From a virus (Duplodnaviria; Caudoviricetes), in the IMG/VR virus record IMGVR_UViG_3300031951_000193, positions 1-55,856 of that record: 55,856 nucleotides of DNA; one strand, written 5' to 3'. The notes beneath the pieces are model-generated. The model made no database searches. It saw only the letters and a list, made by a program, of their open reading frames with translations, and was not told the origin of the DNA. Both the position numbers and the translations under genes were made by a program. Of this stretch, positions 10,076 to 17,031 are shown one piece after another. The first letter of the stretch is position 1. Each line of letters opens with the position of its first letter.

Positions 10076-11070
10076 ATGATGTCGCCTAGCCCCCAGTCGG
10101 GAAGGTTGTTGGCTGGCCAGCCCTTGCTCGGGCCAATAGCGACCATGTACCTGTCCTTCAGGTCGGTCCACTTCGCCCAGAAAGAACCTTGGGGAATGCG
10201 GTACTTGGTGCCGTATATAACGTCCGGGCCGGACAGGTAACTGCTCGGCCAACTGTTTTGGATCAGGAGCAAGCCGCAGCCGAAGCGCTGCACTGTTTCA
10301 GACCTGTCATCAACAGCGATAGCCGCCATCGCGTGGGCCCAAGAGTCGCCATGGTTTCTCTTGCACACGCCAAACGCATCACGCTGCGACACGAACGCTT
10401 CCATGCCGCAGGTGGACAGGGCGTAGCCGTTGGCCAGCATGTCCCTGGCCTGCTCGTAGGTCTTGCAGACGGTGGCGTTAGAGCAGAGATGCTGGGCACA
10501 GGCTTTCCGCACGCTCTCTGGTGGAGCAGTGGCGCCCCACTTGCCCTCTACCTTGGGATCATACTCGGTGAGGTCGAGCCCCAGTTCCGTGTACTTCTGC
10601 CGCAGCAGCAGGCCGCACTGATTGATAAGAACCTGGGCTGCCGCAGAACATTGCCAGCCGTCCCCGCCGTGCCCGCGAAACCAATACACCCCGTCCGTAC
10701 TGGCAACGCCATTACGCATGGCGACGGGGCTCACCACCGGGAACGTGAACCGCTCTTCGTTCTTACCGTAGGCAATGTAAGAGCAGTAGGAAACGAGGGC
10801 CGCGTTGCGAGAACTCCACGCCACGCACGACCCACGCTTCTGGTAGCCGCCCGGCAGACAGTCCGGGTACTGCTGCAATGCCGCAAGGTACGGCAGCGAG
10901 AGTTTGCCGGCCCCGCTGTCACGCAGGTGGTAGTCATCAATGGCATCGCCGGCATCGGCGTAGCCACCGTGGTCATTCAGGAACGCTGACAGTTCAGCGT
11001 CCGCACGGGGGTCAGGGATGTATCCCTTGAGCCGCCCCGATTCATAATCCAGAAGGATCTCTGGCTTCAT
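10072..11070 (-). CDS. Papain-like (C1 family) cysteine peptidase
   Basis: QKRGSCVAWS (oxyanion Q and catalytic C), WAHAM (His), IQNSW (Asn), GSFW. Confidence 0.85.
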   Translation of the reverse strand: MKPEILLDYESGRLKGYIPDPRADAELSAFLNDHGGYADAGDAIDDYHLRDSGAGKLSLPYLAALQQYPDCLPGGYQKRGSCVAWSSRNAALVSYCSYIAYGKNEERFTFPVVSPVAMRNGVASTDGVYWFRGHGGDGWQCSAAAQVLINQCGLLLRQKYTELGLDLTEYDPKVEGKWGATAPPESVRKACAQHLCSNATVCKTYEQARDMLANGYALSTCGMEAFVSQRDAFGVCKRNHGDSWAHAMAAIAVDDRSETVQRFGCGLLLIQNSWPSSYLSGPDVIYGTKYRIPQGSFWAKWTDLKDRYMVAIGPSKGWPANNLPDWGLGDII

Positions 11071-11483
11071 TTGAGGGAGGCGCTCATGGAGAGGAAGGTC
11101 TGTGCAACTTCACGTTGCAGGGCTGGGTTCAGCGGAACATCCGCCGTGCCCAAACTCCGTTCGACCTCTCCCTCCAGCGCCTCCCGCAGGCCCGGGTACT
11201 TGCCCGGCTTGTTGTCGAATACGCCAGCCCACACCACCAGCAAGGCCGCTCGATGGGCTCTCCTGACGGCGGCGGTGTCCACGAATACTGGCTCTGTCTC
11301 TGGGTCCGCCTCGACCGCACGGCCGAGGACGGCGTAGGCATCCGACAGGCCGGACCGCTCGGCCGCTGTCATGCGGGCTGCCACGGCCGACAGGGCGTTG
11401 GTCGGCTTGGTGCCTTGTTCCGCCGGCTGCCGGAACAACAGGTATCCAAGGGCGAGAATAGCGCACAGGAGAAGGCGAATCAT
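11067..11483 (-). CDS. Membrane-anchored/exported hypothetical protein
   Basis: MIRLLLCAILALGYLLF hydrophobic N-terminus; coupled on both sides. Confidence 0.7.
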   Translation of the reverse strand: MIRLLLCAILALGYLLFRQPAEQGTKPTNALSAVAARMTAAERSGLSDAYAVLGRAVEADPETEPVFVDTAAVRRAHRAALLVVWAGVFDNKPGKYPGLREALEGEVERSLGTADVPLNPALQREVAQTFLSMSASLK

Positions 11484-11776
11484 GCCACCGGCCCCCCTCC
11501 CAGGATCTCCCATATCAACTGCTTGCACAGTTTCAGGGATGACTGCTGCTTGCCCTTGGACTCCAAGTCAGCCTGCAACTGCATGAGGGTCTGCACCCAC
11601 TTGTTCCGCCAGTTGGCGGCGGACTCTTCCTCCGAGGCTACCGCCGCCGCAGGACTGGAGGACATGAAAGTGTTCCAGCCTAGCACGGCCCAGTTGGCGA
11701 TCAGCGGGTACGCCACGACAGCGACCAACGCCACGGCCACCAGATAGTCAGCGGGCTGGAGACTCATGTCCGTCAC
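11480..11776 (-). CDS. Membrane protein
   Basis: TM segment YLVAVALVAVVAYPLIA. Confidence 0.7.
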   Translation of the reverse strand: MTDMSLQPADYLVAVALVAVVAYPLIANWAVLGWNTFMSSSPAAAVASEEESAANWRNKWVQTLMQLQADLESKGKQQSSLKLCKQLIWEILGGGPVA

Positions 11777-12066
11777 ACCTTCGGGTCGTGCAGTCGCACC
11801 GGCGGAACTTCGTTGAACACGTTGTTCAGGATGGTTGCCAGATAGTCTAGCAACTCACCCCCCGCTGGCGTCAGCAACACTGACCGGCAGTGGGCGAGCA
11901 ACTCGTTGTCCAGCCCGGTCGGAGTCTTGGTAGCGAGGAAGTCCAGCAGGTCGATGGCCCGGTAGACGCGATCCCTACCCGGGGGTGCCGACGAGATGGC
12001 GATCAGGTAATTGAGGGCTGGTGACCACTGGAGCAGGATTTTGATTTTGTCTGCAACTGATGGCAT
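11773..12066 (-). CDS. Hypothetical protein
   Basis: Coupled ORF, first gene downstream of the CCCATAAACAAGG motif. Confidence 0.7.
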   Translation of the reverse strand: MPSVADKIKILLQWSPALNYLIAISSAPPGRDRVYRAIDLLDFLATKTPTGLDNELLAHCRSVLLTPAGGELLDYLATILNNVFNEVPPVRLHDPKV

Positions 12067-12861: not shown

Positions 12862-13164
12862 TCATTCGCCGCGATACTCCTTTGTAATCCTGGCGAGGAT
12901 CGACCAGAACACGGGGTCATGGGCGTCTTCCCCTTCGTAGGGAACCGGACATTCGTGCCGCAGAACGTGGGCCCATTCCTCCAGCAGAGTCTCGGCCATC
13001 ATGTGTTCCGATGTCTTGCTCAATCGGATGATGGCTCTCTCGTTGGTTACATGGCAGAGCCCGTACATCCCCGGCAGGTTTGGCACCACCCGTATCCTGA
13101 CCGGGGTCGTTGTTGGGAACTTGCGGCGAAGCCAGCGGGACACCTTGCGCAACGTCGAAGGCAT
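12862..13164 (-). CDS. SprT/zincin-like small protein with EExxH variant motif
   Basis: YGLC...IRL...TLLEEWAH...HDPVFW. Confidence 0.65.
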   Translation of the reverse strand: MPSTLRKVSRWLRRKFPTTTPVRIRVVPNLPGMYGLCHVTNERAIIRLSKTSEHMMAETLLEEWAHVLRHECPVPYEGEDAHDPVFWSILARITKEYRGE

Positions 13165-13480
13165 GGGCGAGTCTCGGTAGGTCAATGAGTCGGATAGTCA
13201 GTAGCCATCCAACCGGACTTCGGTTGGTGCGGTGCAGCAAGACGGGGGTCTTACGCCCAGCCTGCTCCACCGCCTTCTTCATGGTTTTTGGTACTGACAA
13301 CGCCTCAACACGCTTGACCTCAAACCAGAGTCCGGGAGTGTCTGAAACACGCAGGTCCGCAGAGTCTTGCGTTCCCGAGTGCTGTACGCTACGCCCGCAC
13401 TCCCACCCAAAAAGTTCCCGTAAAACCTGGGCTGCCTCTAATTCCCCGACCTTCCCCTTGCGACGGCTGTTCACGGCCAC
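12917..13480 (-). CDS. Holliday junction resolvase (PD-(D/E)xK, phage Hjc-like)
   Basis: NSRRKGKVGELE, DL, FEVKR, PVLLHR; non-conserved tail overlaps the next gene. Confidence 0.8.
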   Translation of the reverse strand: MAVNSRRKGKVGELEAAQVLRELFGWECGRSVQHSGTQDSADLRVSDTPGLWFEVKRVEALSVPKTMKKAVEQAGRKTPVLLHRTNRSPVGWLLTIRLIDLPRLAHAFDVAQGVPLASPQVPNNDPGQDTGGAKPAGDVRALPCNQRESHHPIEQDIGTHDGRDSAGGMGPRSAARMSGSLRRGRRP

Positions 13481-13857
13481 GGCTTGCCTCCATGTTGTCG
13501 CCTGTCCCGCAGGAACTTGTCTGGGATTGGCTCTTGCTCATAGGGCAGGGCCTTGCGGCGACGAAGGCTGGCCAACTTCTCCACGTTGACCGACCCGTCT
13601 ACCTCTTCCTTGGCTGTGAGGATCGCCCCCCGGGGGATCTCGCCGTAGTCCATCAACTTGTTGTGGACGGCGTGGTGACAACGGTTGCACAGGCTAATCC
13701 AGTTTTCTGGGATGTCCTTGCGTCCCGCGCCACCGACGATGTGGTGCAGTTCCATCCATCGTCCGCGACGGTCTGCCGGCCAGTGGCACACCGCGCAGAA
13801 CGGGTGCAGCATCATGTAGTCGCGGCGGGTGAACTGTTCGTCCGTGTCTTCAGACAT
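13471..13857 (-). CDS. HNH endonuclease
   Basis: CAVC...ELHHI......NWISLCNRCHHAVH. Confidence 0.85.
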   Translation of the reverse strand: MSEDTDEQFTRRDYMMLHPFCAVCHWPADRRGRWMELHHIVGGAGRKDIPENWISLCNRCHHAVHNKLMDYGEIPRGAILTAKEEVDGSVNVEKLASLRRRKALPYEQEPIPDKFLRDRRQHGGKPWP

Positions 13858-14290
13858 GCCGCTTGACCCACCCGTCATCCACTCGCTTGTAACGAACGAC
13901 CTGCTCGACTCCAGCCCAGGCTGCGATCTTCTCAAACTCGTCCGAGAACACGCCTACCTCGGTGGACTGCAACGGAACTGACTGCAACAGCACTGCCGTG
14001 CAGGCGGACGCCAGACGCTTCCTGCGATGCTCCGGGGCTACGAACCCTTCCAGGCACGGGATGCCGTCCCACAAGTGCAGGCTTACCCACGCCACGGGCG
14101 TCAGGTCGAACTCGTCATCCAGCATGCACACGGCAAAAACGAGATCATCTGGAACATCGTCCGGTCGGCGTCCTTCAGCGATGCCAGTAATCCACTTGCG
14201 GTGCAGGGAGTCCGGGTTCGTTAGCCCAGCCATGCCGTGGGCAAGGAACGGCGGCAGAGTGTCAGCACTCGTCGTTTGAATGTTCAGCAT
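13850..14290 (-). CDS. GNAT family acetyltransferase
   Basis: FVAPEHRRKRLAS acetyl-CoA-binding motif A. Confidence 0.75.
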   Translation of the reverse strand: MLNIQTTSADTLPPFLAHGMAGLTNPDSLHRKWITGIAEGRRPDDVPDDLVFAVCMLDDEFDLTPVAWVSLHLWDGIPCLEGFVAPEHRRKRLASACTAVLLQSVPLQSTEVGVFSDEFEKIAAWAGVEQVVRYKRVDDGWVKRHV

Positions 14291-14465
14291 GTTCGCCACA
14301 CCACTCCTCCTTTTTGACCACCGGCCATCCACCATTCAGGGCTCCAGGCTCTATGAATTGCGGGGGTCCACGCAGGCAGCGTCCGTATTCGCCGTCATAC
14401 CGCTCGGGTATCCAGTCAAAGAACAAGCAGGTCTGGCAGGACGGATGATCCGGTTTGGCAATCAC
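14262..14465 (-). CDS. Small Cys-rich phage protein
   Basis: CQTCLF...GRC.RGPP...WP.V....WCGEH; GGGAG SD. Confidence 0.75.
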   Translation of the reverse strand: MIAKPDHPSCQTCLFFDWIPERYDGEYGRCLRGPPQFIEPGALNGGWPVVKKEEWCGEHAEHSNDEC

Positions 14466-14483
14466 TGAACTCCCTTTCAGTAC

Positions 14484-14910
14484 CAGCCTACGGGGCTGTC
14501 AAGATCGGGTTGTCCAACACTTCCTCTTTGCAGATGTGTAAGACCAGATGCCCAATCGGTCGCAGATGCCATGTCCCCCCGACTCCCTGGCTGTGGCCGC
14601 CTTGACCAACACGGCACCCTTTGGTGAGGGCAGACCGACTCCCCGTTACCGGAGAGTCGTTTCTGACAGGCACCCTTCGGAGCCGGGCAAAACCGGGAAG
14701 TGTGTGTTGGTTTCGGGGTTCACTTCCTTGCATCCTTCGCCCCGTGCGGAGGGCCCCGTGGGCCTTTGAGTCCCGGCTGGAGTCGGCAGCGTGCCGGGCT
14801 AATTCCGCATGCCGCTGGATTTCCCTGTGCCCCAGGGTTGGTCAACAGCGGTGCTGTGCCCTCTTGTCGCACTCCATGCGGAGCCGGTTGGCGGGGCACC
14901 GATCTTCAGG
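14484..14910 (-). ncRNA. Candidate structured non-coding RNA (~410-430 nt) or structured origin
   Basis: No convincing ORF; 8-bp closing helix 14899-14906/14501-14508; nested helices; GUAA-capped 10-bp stem 14636-14659 whose single mismatch is G-U on the - strand. Confidence 0.55.
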
Positions 14911-14928
14911 CCAGTCGCCCAACGGGGG

Positions 14929-16512
14929 CTATTTGCTAAATCCCTTGTTCTTGCAGTGCTTCCTGCGTTCCATCTCGTCCGTGCATGCTTTTAGAACAGC
15001 GCGGTCACGGCAGTCGGATTTGTTGACCACCCACCACAGGTACGGGTGCGGGATCACGCTGAAACTCATTCGCTTGTAGCGGCCGAACGGCATCGCAGTG
15101 CAGACACGCACGCGCTCGGGCTGCTCGGCAGAGCGGTAGACATCGTGCTGGTAGTTGCCGTAGCGGGCCTGCACGACATGCCCCTGGCGACGGCTCCACT
15201 CAAGTTGATCGCGGGCGTGCTGCTCCCGGGCCTCGGCCTCCCGCTCGGCCTCTATTACAGGATCGAGCGTCCGGCCCGTTTGGGCCCCCGCGTTCTCCTG
15301 CTTCTTGCGGACCCGCCGCATAACCGTGGCGTCGAGGTCGGGGTACAAAACGTCGAGCGAGGTACACAGGTCGTTGTGCCTGGACGAGTCTGTAATATCG
15401 AACACTTCAAAGTACGGCTTGGCCGAGTTGGCAATGGCCACCTTCCGCTGCTCGGCAGACCCGTAGCCGTCAACTACGCCTGTCAGTGGCCGCGTCCCAC
15501 GGCCAAACATCTGGACGTACTTGGCCTTGCTTCTCGTCGGCTTGGCAACGAACAGTTTCCTTACCGGGGGCCAGTCCCAGCCAAGCGTTAGGCAGCCCAC
15601 GTTCAGAACAATGTTGACCACGCCTGTCTCAAAATCAGTCAGGTGCTGGCGGCGTTCGATGTCATCCATCTGCGAGTGAACGATGGAGGACTCGATACCC
15701 CGACGCTTGAGGTTGTCCCGCAGAGCCTCGGCCTGAAATATGCCCTGGCAGAACACTACGCTCGGGTCGCCCTCATGGTGCTGCTCCACCAGTGAGCCGA
15801 TCTCCTGCACGGTCTGTTCCTGTGCCATGACGCGGGCCAGTTCGTCAGCGTTGAAGTCGCCAAACTTCTGTGCCCGCATCCGTGCCGTGGACAGGTCAAG
15901 GCTTTCAAGGACCGATAGCCAAACCTTGGCTGGCACAAGCCAGCCATCCTCGGTGGCCTGACTAATCGGGTAGTAGAACCCGATGTTGCCGTAGTAGGCC
16001 GTGAGCGGATCTCCCTTGGATCGCTCGGGGCTGGCAGTCAGCCCGACCAACCTAACGCCACCCTGCGTCAGGTTGGTGAGCATCTCCAGTGCGCGCTTGG
16101 AGAAGTTCTGGTGAACCTCATCCACGATAATCAGGTCTACCGCGTTGATGTACCTTTCCCACCGCTTGCGTGAGAGCAGGGATTGGTAGCAAGCAACCGT
16201 GACCTTCTCGTCGGAACGTAGTCCTCCCTGTTCGACGCCGCACTCGATGCCCCGGCTTCGCAGCCGCTGGGCCGTCTGTCCAACCAGTTGAATCAGTGGG
16301 GCAATGAACAATGCCCCCTTGACGCACTCCCGAATCAGTTCCGCAGCGATCTCTGTTTTTCCGGTTCCCGTGGCAAGCACGCCCAGCGTCCTGCCGCTGG
16401 AGTTCAAGGCCATCCTGATCCCTGCCAGCGCGTCACGCTGGTATGGGCGCAGGCTGATTGGCTTGCAGTTATCAACTGGAAACAGGGTCTGCTGGCTCGT
16501 TATCTCGCTCAT
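14929..16512 (-). CDS. SF2 DEAD/DEAH-box helicase
   Basis: LRPYQ, ATGTGKT, DEVH, TAS, LTLGWD, QMFGRGTR; C-terminal MPFGRYK...YLWW (DUF3820-like). Confidence 0.93.
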   Translation of the reverse strand: MSEITSQQTLFPVDNCKPISLRPYQRDALAGIRMALNSSGRTLGVLATGTGKTEIAAELIRECVKGALFIAPLIQLVGQTAQRLRSRGIECGVEQGGLRSDEKVTVACYQSLLSRKRWERYINAVDLIIVDEVHQNFSKRALEMLTNLTQGGVRLVGLTASPERSKGDPLTAYYGNIGFYYPISQATEDGWLVPAKVWLSVLESLDLSTARMRAQKFGDFNADELARVMAQEQTVQEIGSLVEQHHEGDPSVVFCQGIFQAEALRDNLKRRGIESSIVHSQMDDIERRQHLTDFETGVVNIVLNVGCLTLGWDWPPVRKLFVAKPTRSKAKYVQMFGRGTRPLTGVVDGYGSAEQRKVAIANSAKPYFEVFDITDSSRHNDLCTSLDVLYPDLDATVMRRVRKKQENAGAQTGRTLDPVIEAEREAEAREQHARDQLEWSRRQGHVVQARYGNYQHDVYRSAEQPERVRVCTAMPFGRYKRMSFSVIPHPYLWWVVNKSDCRDRAVLKACTDEMERRKHCKNKGFSK

Positions 16513-16799: not shown

Positions 16800-17031
16800 C
16801 ACTCGTACTCCCCGTTGGAAACAGTTCCGCACCACTGGCGGCGCGGAGCATGTCGATTTCTGCCAAGAGGGTTTGGATGTCCTCTCGGTTGCGTGTCAGT
16901 GCGTCGAAGACCAGCCCGTAGGTGGACTCGTCAAACCGCACCTTGTCCGGCGTGCGGACCACTAGGTCAGCAACGTCCGCCGTAAGCAGCAGCCTTTGCT
17001 TGAGCGCGAGGTAATCGCCTGGAGGGATCAC
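16552..17031 (-). CDS. Hypothetical protein
   Basis: GTG coupled to the ERF stop, GGAG SD; ordered ~75 aa then a low-complexity tail overlapping the next gene. Confidence 0.55.
   Translation of the reverse strand: MIPPGDYLALKQRLLLTADVADLVVRTPDKVRFDESTYGLVFDALTRNREDIQTLLAEIDMLRAASGAELFPTGSTSDAQGIDAGHRGTVEVVQGPSGGGSGGEVRADAAGLGGEVQAGGANGERAKRSKPRRNRKGGQSPAPAVDAGSTAESVGGSPG

What the first reader, a model, noticed from the sequence alone, without database searches (positions are those of the whole stretch)
14484..14910. Candidate large, pseudoknotted ncRNA directly downstream of the SF2 helicase
Seen in sequence: this ~460-nt gap is the longest in an otherwise tightly coupled genome. On the - strand it can fold as one closed domain. 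AAGATCGG (14906-14899) pairs with CCGATCTT (14508-14501). TCCGCATG/CATGCGGA (14882-14875/14811-14804) encloses CCGCTG/CAGCGG. The hairpin 14800-14769 shows CCGACTCC in its loop, complementary to GGAGTCGG at 14586-14579, which would be a pseudoknot. There is also a GUAA-capped 10-bp stem (14659-14636) and alternative GGAAGTG/CACTTCC/CCAACAC pairings (14727-14696 vs 14524-14514 and 14612-14606). The G-U pair and GNRA loop favour a - strand RNA co-transcribed with the helicase. I do not recognise an Rfam family. Inference: no primase, polymerase or initiator is visible in the window, so this may be a helicase-associated RNA or an RNA primer/origin, i.e. an undescribed helicase-ncRNA module.
Basis: partly seen in the sequence, partly recalled or inferred. 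Interest (0 to 1): 0.85.

Follow-up and report, generated by a model that had tools for sequence, protein, structure and literature searches.

The report
New folded phage RNA before nuclease genes
The gap after the helicase gene encodes a real, previously uncatalogued folded RNA of about 320 bases with two pseudoknots. It is shared by dozens of uncultured phages and travels with a small DNA-cutting enzyme gene rather than with the helicase; its job is still unknown.

Summary
The finding is real but needs redrawing. A conserved RNA of about 319 nt lies on the minus strand at 14931-14613. The last ~145 nt of the gap are not conserved.

- **Spread:** homologues occur in 73 of 287 fetched loci, 47 distinct, once per genome here.
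- **Structure:** covariation is strong: 94.6% paired against 80.5% in shuffles, 0 of 500 as high, 12 pairs changed on both sides. An independent set gave 90% against 72.5%.
- **Rfam:** no match.
- **Coding:** no conserved reading frame.
three hold: the CCGACUCC-loop hairpin, the GUAA-capped stem and GGAAGUG/CACUUCC. The closing helix and UCCGCAUG/CAUGCGGA do not.
- **Helicase:** it is the immediate neighbour only in the window's own clade.
- **HNH gene:** the constant neighbour is an HNH nuclease gene downstream, in 19 of 21 loci. In relatives that gene is preceded by a second, unrelated structured RNA.

My best guess, at about 0.4, is a co-transcribed conformational-switch leader for the nuclease genes. 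Rivals are a nuclease RNA partner or stand-alone ornate RNA, a ribozyme, and an origin RNA. Two first-reader notes on other genomes flagged similar elements.

The parts
14613..14931 (-). Conserved RNA core, about 319 nt. It runs from the helicase stop codon to the end of the second copy of the repeated segment.
   Evidence: DNA similarity to 4 relatives continues past the helicase stop codon to about 14612-14617. Alignments A1, A4 and A5. nhmmer and covariance-model matches.
14917..14929 (-). 5' hairpin H0 (GCCC/GGGC here, GGCA/UGCC in other lineages), starting at the stop codon of the upstream gene.
   Evidence: Seen by eye in A5. The crude swap test did not separate it from controls, so support is weak.
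14899..14912 (-). Conserved single-stranded motif GGCCUGAAGAUCGG.
   Evidence: Conserved in most sequences of A5 and replaced in L032, L164, L103 and L158. No conserved pairing partner found.
14856..14899 (-). Helix H1 (14899-14894 with 14861-14856) enclosing hairpin H2 (14883-14880 with 14875-14872) and the conserved CGCC and ACAAGAG junction strands.
   Evidence: 5 of 6 H1 pairs and 2 of 4 H2 pairs changed on both sides. Seven stem variants were seen.
14812..14851 (-). Variable hairpin H5 (CCGCUG/CAGCGG with an inner CCCUG/CAGGG stem). It is absent in several relatives.
   Evidence: A5 shows deletion of this segment in L032, L164, L124 and L103.
14745..14809 (-). Three-way junction. H6 (14809-14804 with 14750-14745) encloses H3 (14798-14793 with 14777-14772, loop with invariant CGACUCC at 14785-14779) and hairpin H7 (14764-14761 with 14755-14752).
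   Evidence: Swap tests: 0 of 5000 permutations reached the observed value for H6, 0 of 5000 for H3, 2 of 5000 for H7. H3 also.
14696..14744 (-). H-type pseudoknot. S1 is CGGGG/CCCCG (14744-14740 with 14718-14714). S2 is GGAAGUG/CACUUCC (14727-14721 with 14702-14696). An A-rich third loop lies at 14713-14703.
   Evidence: S2: 6 of 7 pairs changed on both sides; 0 of 5000 permutations. S1 is invariant in the first sequence type but takes two other complementary forms in the second type.
14669..14684 (-). First repeat unit: GGCUCC (14684-14679) followed by X1, AAGGGUGCC (14677-14669).
   Evidence: Exact copy found at 14669-14677. The repeat is found in every lineage but with a different sequence in each.
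14636..14659 (-). Hairpin H4 (CGACUCUCC, loop GGUAAC, GGGGAGUCG). Its 3' arm GGAGUCG is invariant and is also complementary to the H3 loop.
   Evidence: the upper stem covaries; the base next to GACUCC and the base next to GGAGUC are C-G in 38 rows and U-A in 4.
14613..14630 (-). Second repeat unit: C-rich CCCUCACC followed by X2, AAGGGUGCC (14621-14613). This is the 3' end of the conserved region.
   Evidence: The two copies lie 52-63 nt apart in most lineages.
14466..14612 (-). Non-conserved tail of the gap. It is not part of the RNA family. In relatives it partly codes for an N-terminal extension of the next small protein.
   Evidence: Poor conservation in A1. The ORFs of L002 and L003 start further upstream than the window's.
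14929..16512 (-). Context: SF2 helicase gene. It is the upstream neighbour in this clade only.
   Evidence: Pfam ResIII, Helicase_C and DEAD. Synteny.
13471..13935 (-). Context: conserved HNH endonuclease gene, the constant downstream neighbour of the RNA. It is followed by a RusA-like resolvase gene (12917..13480).
   Evidence: Pfam HNH, PHROG RusA, tblastn synteny in 19 of 21 loci.

Best explanation
**What it is (near certain).** Window 14931-14613, minus strand, encodes one member of an uncatalogued family of structured RNAs of about 300-320 nt in uncultured phages of about 55-62 kb. The RNA has:
- a 5' domain (H0, H1 and H2);
- a three-way junction (H6, H3 and H7);
- an H-type pseudoknot with an A-rich loop;
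- a 3' platform.

**How it most likely works (inferred, about 0.4).** No promoter or terminator is detectable around it, so it is probably co-transcribed with the upstream early gene. It would act in cis as a conformational switch at the head of the nuclease gene block (inserted endonuclease genes, the HNH gene, RusA).
- The invariant GGAGUCG can pair either with the 5' arm of its own hairpin (H4) or with the invariant CGACUCC loop of H3.
- Two copies of a lineage-specific 6-13-nt segment, X1 and X2, flank this hairpin.
- X2 often lies a few bases before the ribosome-binding site of the next gene.
- Which pairing forms would set how far the downstream message is translated or processed.

The trigger, whether ligand, protein or folding kinetics, is unknown.
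For: **Shown: the RNA is real.**
- Conservation runs about 315 nt past the stop codon in 4 relatives.
- 35 of 204 loci matched strongly after pattern scans, giving 21 distinct sequences. In the end 73 of 287 loci held it, 47 distinct.
- Covariation: 94.6% paired against 80.5% in shuffles, 0 of 500 as high; slid controls 35-48%.
- Covariation, on 18 distinct sequences reached through the HNH protein: 90% against 72.5%, 0 of 500; 10 of 13 pairs changed on both sides.
- Swap tests: 0 of 5000 permutations for H3, H6 and S2.
- Both pseudoknot stems change in step across sequence types.
- All three sense frames carry stops in 21 of 21 sequences.
- One copy in this genome.

**Bearing on a cis-acting switch.**
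- Same strand as the flanking genes, starting at the upstream stop codon. No sigma-70-type promoter or terminator in 13800-15300.
- GGAGUCG has two mutually exclusive partners. The H4 upper stem covaries. The base 5' of GACUCC and the base 3' of GGAGUC are C-G in 38 rows and U-A in 4.
- X1 equals X2 in every lineage although the sequence differs between lineages.
- X2 ends about 3-14 nt before the ribosome-binding site or start codon of the next gene in L035, L031, L250, L217, L216 and L244.
- The RNA stays at the head of the nuclease block while the upstream gene changes.
Against: - The distance from X2 to the next start codon varies. It is 147 nt in the window and about 40-130 nt in several lineages.
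- In some lineages a TAYACT box lies 7 nt before the HNH start codon (L124, L217, L216), or before the endonuclease VII leader. The downstream genes may therefore have their own promoter.
- A common pairing partner for X1 and X2 was not demonstrated. For X1, 72 of 5000 permutations reached the observed value; for X2, 4354 of 5000 did.
- The U-A variant supporting the H3-loop pairing occurs in one clade only, so it is a single event.
- About 320 nt is large for a cis regulator.
- Folding energy is not unusual (z = -1.13).
- No expression data: a metatranscriptome held contigs on neighbouring genes but none on the RNA, which proves nothing.
Confidence: 0.4

Rival explanations
1. A stable trans-acting RNA, cut from the early transcript, that works as part of a ribonucleoprotein. 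One version is a stand-alone ornate RNA like other large phage RNAs of unknown function. The other is a cofactor of the conserved small HNH nuclease.
For: - It has a complex fold, with many invariant bases in loops and junctions.
- The HNH gene lies 13-815 nt downstream in 19 of 21 loci found through the RNA.
- Of 80 loci found through the HNH protein, 37 carry this RNA upstream (plus L005). A second conserved element sits upstream in 19 more and a third in 5.
- The second element also folds with covariation: 19 of 47 pairs show compensatory changes.
- The upstream gene varies while the RNA-HNH order is kept.
Against: - Other genes, some with a promoter-like box of their own, are inserted between the RNA and the HNH gene in most lineages.
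- The HNH protein shows nothing beyond a generic HNH domain. Against the Protein Data Bank its best match is McrA (E = 0.002), with no IscB or Cas9. Fold search gave 0 matches at E <= 0.001.
- Conserved gene order in related phages could explain the linkage without any function.
Confidence: 0.25
2. A self-processing ribozyme that cuts the polycistronic transcript just ahead of the nuclease genes. The two identical X segments would mark the processing sites.
For: - It has two pseudoknots, a three-way junction and invariant junction bases, as ribozymes often do.
- It sits directly upstream of endonuclease genes.
- Identical short segments flank a unit of about 56 nt.
Against: - No match to any ribozyme family in Rfam, even at E <= 10.
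- No catalytic motif recognised.
- Nothing here tests cleavage.
Confidence: 0.1
3. One reading: an origin transcript or primer RNA for a phage in which no primase, polymerase or initiator is recognised. X1 and X2 would act as iteron-like sites.
For: - It lies inside the replication and recombination gene block: exonuclease, ERF, helicase, RusA.
- It has lineage-specific direct repeats flanking an inverted repeat.
- Related phages carry other non-coding elements at the same place.
Against: - The constraints seen are on RNA pairing on one strand, with G-U pairs. They are not on duplex DNA sites.
- There are only two repeat copies.
- The helicase is not the constant neighbour.
- No test of replication was possible.
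Confidence: 0.08
4. Not an RNA at all: a conserved protein-coding frame, or chance complementarity in GC-rich DNA.
For: - The MFE z-score is only -1.13.
- One antisense frame is open in 8 of 21 sequences.
Against: - Sense frames are open in 0 of 21 sequences. The three antisense frames are open in 8, 1 and 2 of 21.
- Indels of 1 and 2 nt occur inside the conserved blocks.
- Compensatory changes are found in 12 of 30 tested pairs, and slid controls collapse.
Confidence: 0.02

Closest known systems
GOLLD (RF01998) and ROOL (RF03087): large ornate RNAs of phages and prophages with no assigned function
   Same: A large, intricately folded non-coding RNA carried by phages. It was found by conservation and covariation, and its function is unknown.
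   Different: - No covariance-model match.
- Smaller, about 320 nt.
- It sits inside an operon at a fixed place before nuclease genes. My recollection, not checked here, is that GOLLD and ROOL lie near tRNA genes.
HEARO / omega RNA of IscB, and the HNH-only IshB proteins of OMEGA systems (passages of PMC11610941 read)
   Same: A structured RNA of a few hundred nucleotides lying upstream of, and on the same strand as, a small gene with an HNH domain.
   Different: - No match to the HEARO model.
- The HNH protein scores 18-20 bits against the IscB model, whose cut-off is 175.
- It does not retrieve IscB or Cas9 from the Protein Data Bank by profile.
- No Y1 transposase in the genome.
- Other genes often separate the RNA from the HNH gene.
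Leader RNAs and riboswitch-type switches with mutually exclusive pairings, including the structured leaders that earlier notes of this scan report before phage homing-endonuclease genes
   Same: - It is intercistronic and on the same strand as the genes it precedes.
- A conserved 5' fold is joined to a 3' part with competing pairings.
- Nuclease genes lie downstream.
   Different: - Three to four times larger than those leaders.
- One copy per genome at a fixed locus, rather than one per nuclease cassette.
- No ligand or RBS-masking pairing has been shown.
Lariat-capping ribozyme GIR1 (RF01807), upstream of homing-endonuclease genes in twin-ribozyme introns
   Same: A doubly pseudoknotted RNA directly upstream of an endonuclease gene, with alternative pairings at its 3' end. 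The GIR1 architecture is recalled, not tested here.
   Different: - No Rfam match.
- Not inside an intron.
- GIR1 is known only from eukaryotes.
- Catalysis is untested here.

Membership tests
Any Rfam 15 family | Covariance-model match at or above the family's gathering score | tested here: not met
   - 0 matches in the whole window at gathering scores.
- In 14200-15200 at E <= 10, only a 15-bit match to P36, whose cut-off is 36 bits.
- 0 matches on the RNA in 7 homologous loci.
HEARO / omega RNA with IscB or IshB (OMEGA) | RNA matches the HEARO model RF02033 | tested here: not met
   No match, even at E <= 10.
HEARO / omega RNA with IscB or IshB (OMEGA) | The adjacent protein is an IscB-family nuclease | tested here: not met
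   - NCBIfam guided_IscB gives 18-20 bits against a cut-off of 175, over the HNH core only.
- A profile of 14 family members against the Protein Data Bank gives McrA as best match (E = 0.002) and no IscB or Cas9.
- Fold search gave 0 matches at E <= 0.001; the best was a Cas9 HNH domain at E = 0.075.
HEARO / omega RNA with IscB or IshB (OMEGA) | IS200/IS605 context (Y1 transposase) | tested here: not met
   PF01797 gave no match in the window genome, while the control genomes responded. Transposon ends were not examined.
Group I intron | Match to RF00028, P3-P7 core topology, and interrupted host-gene exons | tested here: not met
   - No Rfam match.
- The hairpin carrying the candidate P7-like strand closes directly around it, leaving no room for P4-P6 (sequence).
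- The flanking genes are complete and differ between lineages.
Riboswitch | Conserved ligand-binding fold coupled to alternative pairings that control the downstream gene | tested here: inconclusive
   Both the conserved fold and the competing partners for GGAGUCG are seen. However, the distance to the next gene varies, and a shared partner for X1 and X2 was not shown.
Riboswitch | Binding of a specific ligand | not testable with these tools
   Needs in-line probing or binding assays.
Retron or DGR template RNA | An adjacent reverse transcriptase | tested here: not met
   PF00078 gave no match in the window genome.
ColE1-type primer RNA / origin transcript | A persistent RNA-DNA hybrid at an origin, processed to prime DNA synthesis | not testable with these tools
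   No computation available here addresses origin activity.

The most novel reading that the evidence does not exclude
The small HNH nuclease family of these phages may be an RNA-dependent enzyme. It is preceded by one of at least two sequence-unrelated large structured RNAs in at least 56 of 80 loci (61 with a third, unprobed element). In this reading the RNA would be its cofactor. The lineage-specific duplicated X segments would be its specificity determinants. That would make it a minimal RNA-directed nuclease outside the Cas9/IscB lineage.
Probability: 0.06. Interest if true: 0.95.

Novelty: new member of a known kind. Interest (0 to 1): 0.62.

Why it matters
Large RNAs with complex folds are rare. 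Each class whose function has been worked out so far turned out to be a ribozyme, a riboswitch, a guide RNA or a scaffold.

This one has about 47 distinct natural variants already in hand, two pseudoknots supported by covariation, and an unusual pair of identical segments that change together between lineages. It also has a fixed genetic partner, a small HNH nuclease gene, which in sister phages sits behind a different structured RNA.

That makes it a well-defined target for structure probing, cleavage and binding assays. It may show how these phages control, or arm, their nucleases.

Tried and rejected
**Folding and databases**
- **Folding energy:** z = -1.13 (minus strand) and -0.36 (plus strand). 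This is not evidence either way.
- **INPHARED phages:** blastn with the region found no match.

**Expression**
- 20 runs hold the DNA.
- One metatranscriptome (X20) has contigs at 11000-12043, 16015-16258 and 16966-17727, but none on 14466-14931.
- Two other RNA runs gave nothing.
- These are contigs at low depth, so no verdict is possible.

- No conserved partner for the 5' motif in 15 lineages.

**Partner for X1 and X2**
- No exact complement of X elsewhere in the window.
- None within about 3 kb in 19 loci.
- The swap test was not significant: 72 of 5000 permutations for X1, 4354 of 5000 for X2.
- RNAfold of the platform suggests that each repeat is the 3' arm of a small hairpin in some lineages (window, L217, L216) but not in all.
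- The identity of X1 and X2 therefore remains unexplained.

**Swap tests that failed**
- Crude swap tests did not separate H0, H10 or the upper part of H4 from controls.

**Host**
- One match lies on a 1452-nt contig binned to a Pirellulaceae MAG.
- Model R1 found only that genome strongly among 151 genomes of its family. Three others gave weak matches at E = 7e-5 to 8e-4, which I take as noise.
- The host is not established.

**HNH protein**
- Sequence and fold searches show only a generic HNH domain.

**Mobile-element genes**
- No reverse transcriptase or Y1 transposase in the genome.

**Literature**
- Three answered searches listed nothing that describes this RNA.
- I read only the listings, plus passages of PMC11610941.
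- Supplements were not consulted.

**Upstream ORF in consensus-type sequences**
- A short upstream ORF starts at an AUG five bases after GGAGUCG. Its stop overlaps the next start codon in L124 and L169.
- It is present in only about 10 of 21 sequences, so it is not a family feature.

Full report
**The locus**

The window is a nearly complete virus record of 55,856 bases. The SF2 helicase ORF (14929..16512, minus strand; Pfam ResIII, Helicase_C, DEAD) ends in a TAG at 14931-14929. The next plausible start is the GTG at 14465.

- Rfam gives nothing at gathering scores in the whole window.
- At E <= 10, the region 14200-15200 gives only a 15-bit match to a Pseudomonas sRNA.
- The minimum free energy is ordinary for the composition: z = -1.13 on the minus strand, -0.36 on the plus strand.
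- On this sequence alone, the refuting condition 'energy no better than shuffles' would be met.

**Conservation**

Four IMG/VR contigs encode a helicase 73-76% identical to this one. In all four, DNA similarity continues past the stop codon at the same level as in the gene, to window 14612-14617, and then collapses.

The conserved stretch contains invariant blocks, indels of 1 and 2 nt, and visible compensatory changes.

A pattern built from two invariant blocks recovered 9 further viral loci. The same pattern was run on the genome and metagenome collections (70 and 94 stretches, mostly chance). Filtering with an nhmmer profile left 35 strongly matching loci of the 204 then held. These gave 21 distinct sequences.

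After a later search through the HNH protein, 73 of 287 loci held the element, 47 distinct by a 160-nt key. A few of these are truncated copies.

The window genome has one copy.

**Structure**

- **Five helices on a 12-sequence alignment.** 94.6% of cells pair, against 80.5% after shuffling (0 of 500 shuffles as high). Twelve of 30 pairs change on both sides. Sliding the partners by 1-3 columns drops pairing to 35-48%.
- **Independent set.** This used 18 distinct sequences reached through the HNH protein and aligned to model R1. The H3 hairpin and the second pseudoknot stem pair in 90% of cells, against 72.5% (0 of 500). Ten of 13 pairs change on both sides. An alignment fitted to a model leans towards its structure.
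- **Helices that MAFFT mis-registers.** I swapped the 3' strands among 13 lineage representatives. The observed complementarity was reached by 0 of 5000 permutations for H3, H6 and S2, by 2 of 5000 for H7, and by 40 of 5000 for H1.
- **The pseudoknot.** S1 is invariant (CGGGG/CCCCG) in the first sequence type, but reads AUCGCAG/CUGCGAU or AGCGCCGU/ACGGCGUU in the second. S2 takes at least seven complementary forms.
- **Strand.** G-U pairs lie on the minus strand. For example, U-G occurs in 8 of 12 sequences at one H4 pair.
- **Coding.** Every sense frame has stops in 21 of 21 sequences. The three antisense frames are open in 8, 1 and 2 of 21.

This is a structured RNA, read in the direction of the helicase gene.

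Right:
- the strand;
- the hairpin with CCGACUCC in its loop;
- the GUAA-capped stem;
- GGAAGUG/CACUUCC;
- the pseudoknotted character;
- the absence from Rfam.

Wrong:
- The closing helix AAGATCGG/CCGATCTT has no conserved counterpart, and its 3' arm lies outside the conserved core.
- UCCGCAUG/CAUGCGGA is a coincidence of the window clade. UGCGGA pairs with UCCGCA at 14750-14745 instead.
- The pseudoknot partner is the invariant GGAGUCG at 14642-14636, not the copy at 14586-14579.

The RNA is about 319 nt long, not 460.

**The 3' platform**

GGAGUCG is invariant. It forms the 3' arm of hairpin H4, whose upper stem covaries. It is also fully complementary to the invariant loop of H3.

When H4's 5' arm mutates, GGAGUCG does not follow. 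In one clade of four sequences, however, the base beside it changes G to A. There, both the H3 loop and the H4 5' arm change C to U (C-G in 38 rows, U-A in 4; the remaining rows are chance matches at other distances).

The hairpin is flanked by two copies of a segment X, exact or nearly exact, 52-63 nt apart in most lineages. The sequence of X differs between lineages, with at least ten versions.

One close relative (L005) carries the same base change in both copies.

I could not show a common partner for X, so the repeat remains unexplained.

**Neighbours**

- **Upstream gene.** It is the helicase in the window clade, a 208-aa protein of unknown family in others, and phrog_18407 in others still.
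- **Downstream.** One family of HNH proteins, 132-155 aa, lies 13-815 nt away in 19 of 21 loci. In one of the other two the contig ends; in the other, 1.1 kb shows no HNH. A RusA-like gene follows.
- **Genes inserted between RNA and HNH.** Endonuclease VII-like genes, a 208-aa protein, or two small genes as in the window.

Starting from the HNH family (101 clusters; 80 viral loci):
- model R1 finds the core upstream, on the same strand, in 21 of 80 loci;
- nhmmer finds at least the 5' domain in 36 of 79.

The extra loci are a second sequence type. It has the same 5' domain, H3 loop and 3' platform, but a different pseudoknot sequence.

Among the remaining loci, 19 share another conserved element poor in ORFs upstream of the HNH gene (14 with matches of 120 nt or more, 5 with about 50 nt). 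Five share a third element.

The second element folds with compensatory changes in 19 of 47 predicted pairs. It also has no Rfam match.

So the HNH gene family is preceded by one of two sequence-unrelated structured RNAs in at least 56 of 80 loci. A third conserved element of untested structure brings this to 61.

**The HNH protein**

- It carries only a generic HNH domain.
- It scores 18-20 bits against the IscB model, whose cut-off is 175.
- A profile search of the Protein Data Bank gives McrA as best match (E = 0.002) and no IscB or Cas9.
- A confident model (pLDDT 85.7) has no fold match at E <= 0.001.
- The genome has no reverse transcriptase and no Y1 transposase.

Membership of the OMEGA/HEARO kind is therefore not supported, although the layout resembles it (passages of PMC11610941 read).

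**Reading**

The identity, a new structured RNA family, is secure. The function is inferred.

I favour a cis-acting switch at about 0.4 because:
- the RNA is intercistronic;
- it has no promoter or terminator signal of its own;
- it has two competing pairings under selection;
- it ends close to the next gene's start region in at least six lineages.

Against this:
- the distance to the next gene varies;
- a TAYACT box 7 nt before the HNH start codon in some lineages hints at a separate promoter.

The close two-way linkage with the HNH family keeps an RNA-protein partnership alive, at about 0.25 including the stand-alone version. A ribozyme (0.1) and an origin transcript (0.08) cannot be excluded with these tools.

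**Other limits**

- No expression evidence could be obtained.
- The host is not established.
- Three answered literature searches listed nothing on this RNA. Supplements were not seen.
- Two first-reader notes on other genomes describe look-alike elements after the helicase.

Noticed in passing
L265:2259-2529, L227:2261-2532, L268:2715-2983 and 16 further loci: A second conserved element of about 270 nt occupies the same place, upstream of the same HNH gene family, in phages that lack the RNA studied here. It is unrelated in sequence and has no Rfam match. RNAalifold finds compensatory changes in 19 of 47 pairs. A third element is shared by L257, L258, L262, L263 and L252.
   Followed up: partly
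L124 (about 7 nt before the HNH start codon), L217:2985-3001, L216; also before the endonuclease VII genes in L034, L037, L158, L223, L232, L257, L265 and L227: A conserved GTAYACT box. Before the HNH gene it ends 7 nt from the ATG, as a -10 element of a leaderless message would. Before endonuclease VII-like genes it is followed by a small hairpin, a GAAGGAG ribosome-binding site and a GTG start.
   Followed up: no
L182:2836-2919 (minus strand): Match to Rfam DUF3800-VIII RNA at 46.5 bits, above the gathering score of 40.2, in a relative's contig.
   Followed up: no
window 14466-14540: In relatives L002, L003 and L005 the small Cys-rich protein after the RNA starts about 20 codons further upstream (MARLGS...). 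In the window that extension is cut by a TAG and a frame change, so the gene starts at the GTG at 14465.
   Followed up: partly
   Followed up: yes
window 14886: A DNA run of a near-identical phage reads A for G on the plus strand here, which is C to U in the RNA, in the junction before hairpin H2. The same base is U in L005 and L030.
   Followed up: no
L124, L169 (3' platform): In about 10 of 21 sequences GGAGUCG is followed after 5 nt by an AUG that opens a short ORF. In L124 and L169 its UGA stop overlaps the start codon of the next gene, which suggests translational coupling in that subgroup.
   Followed up: partly
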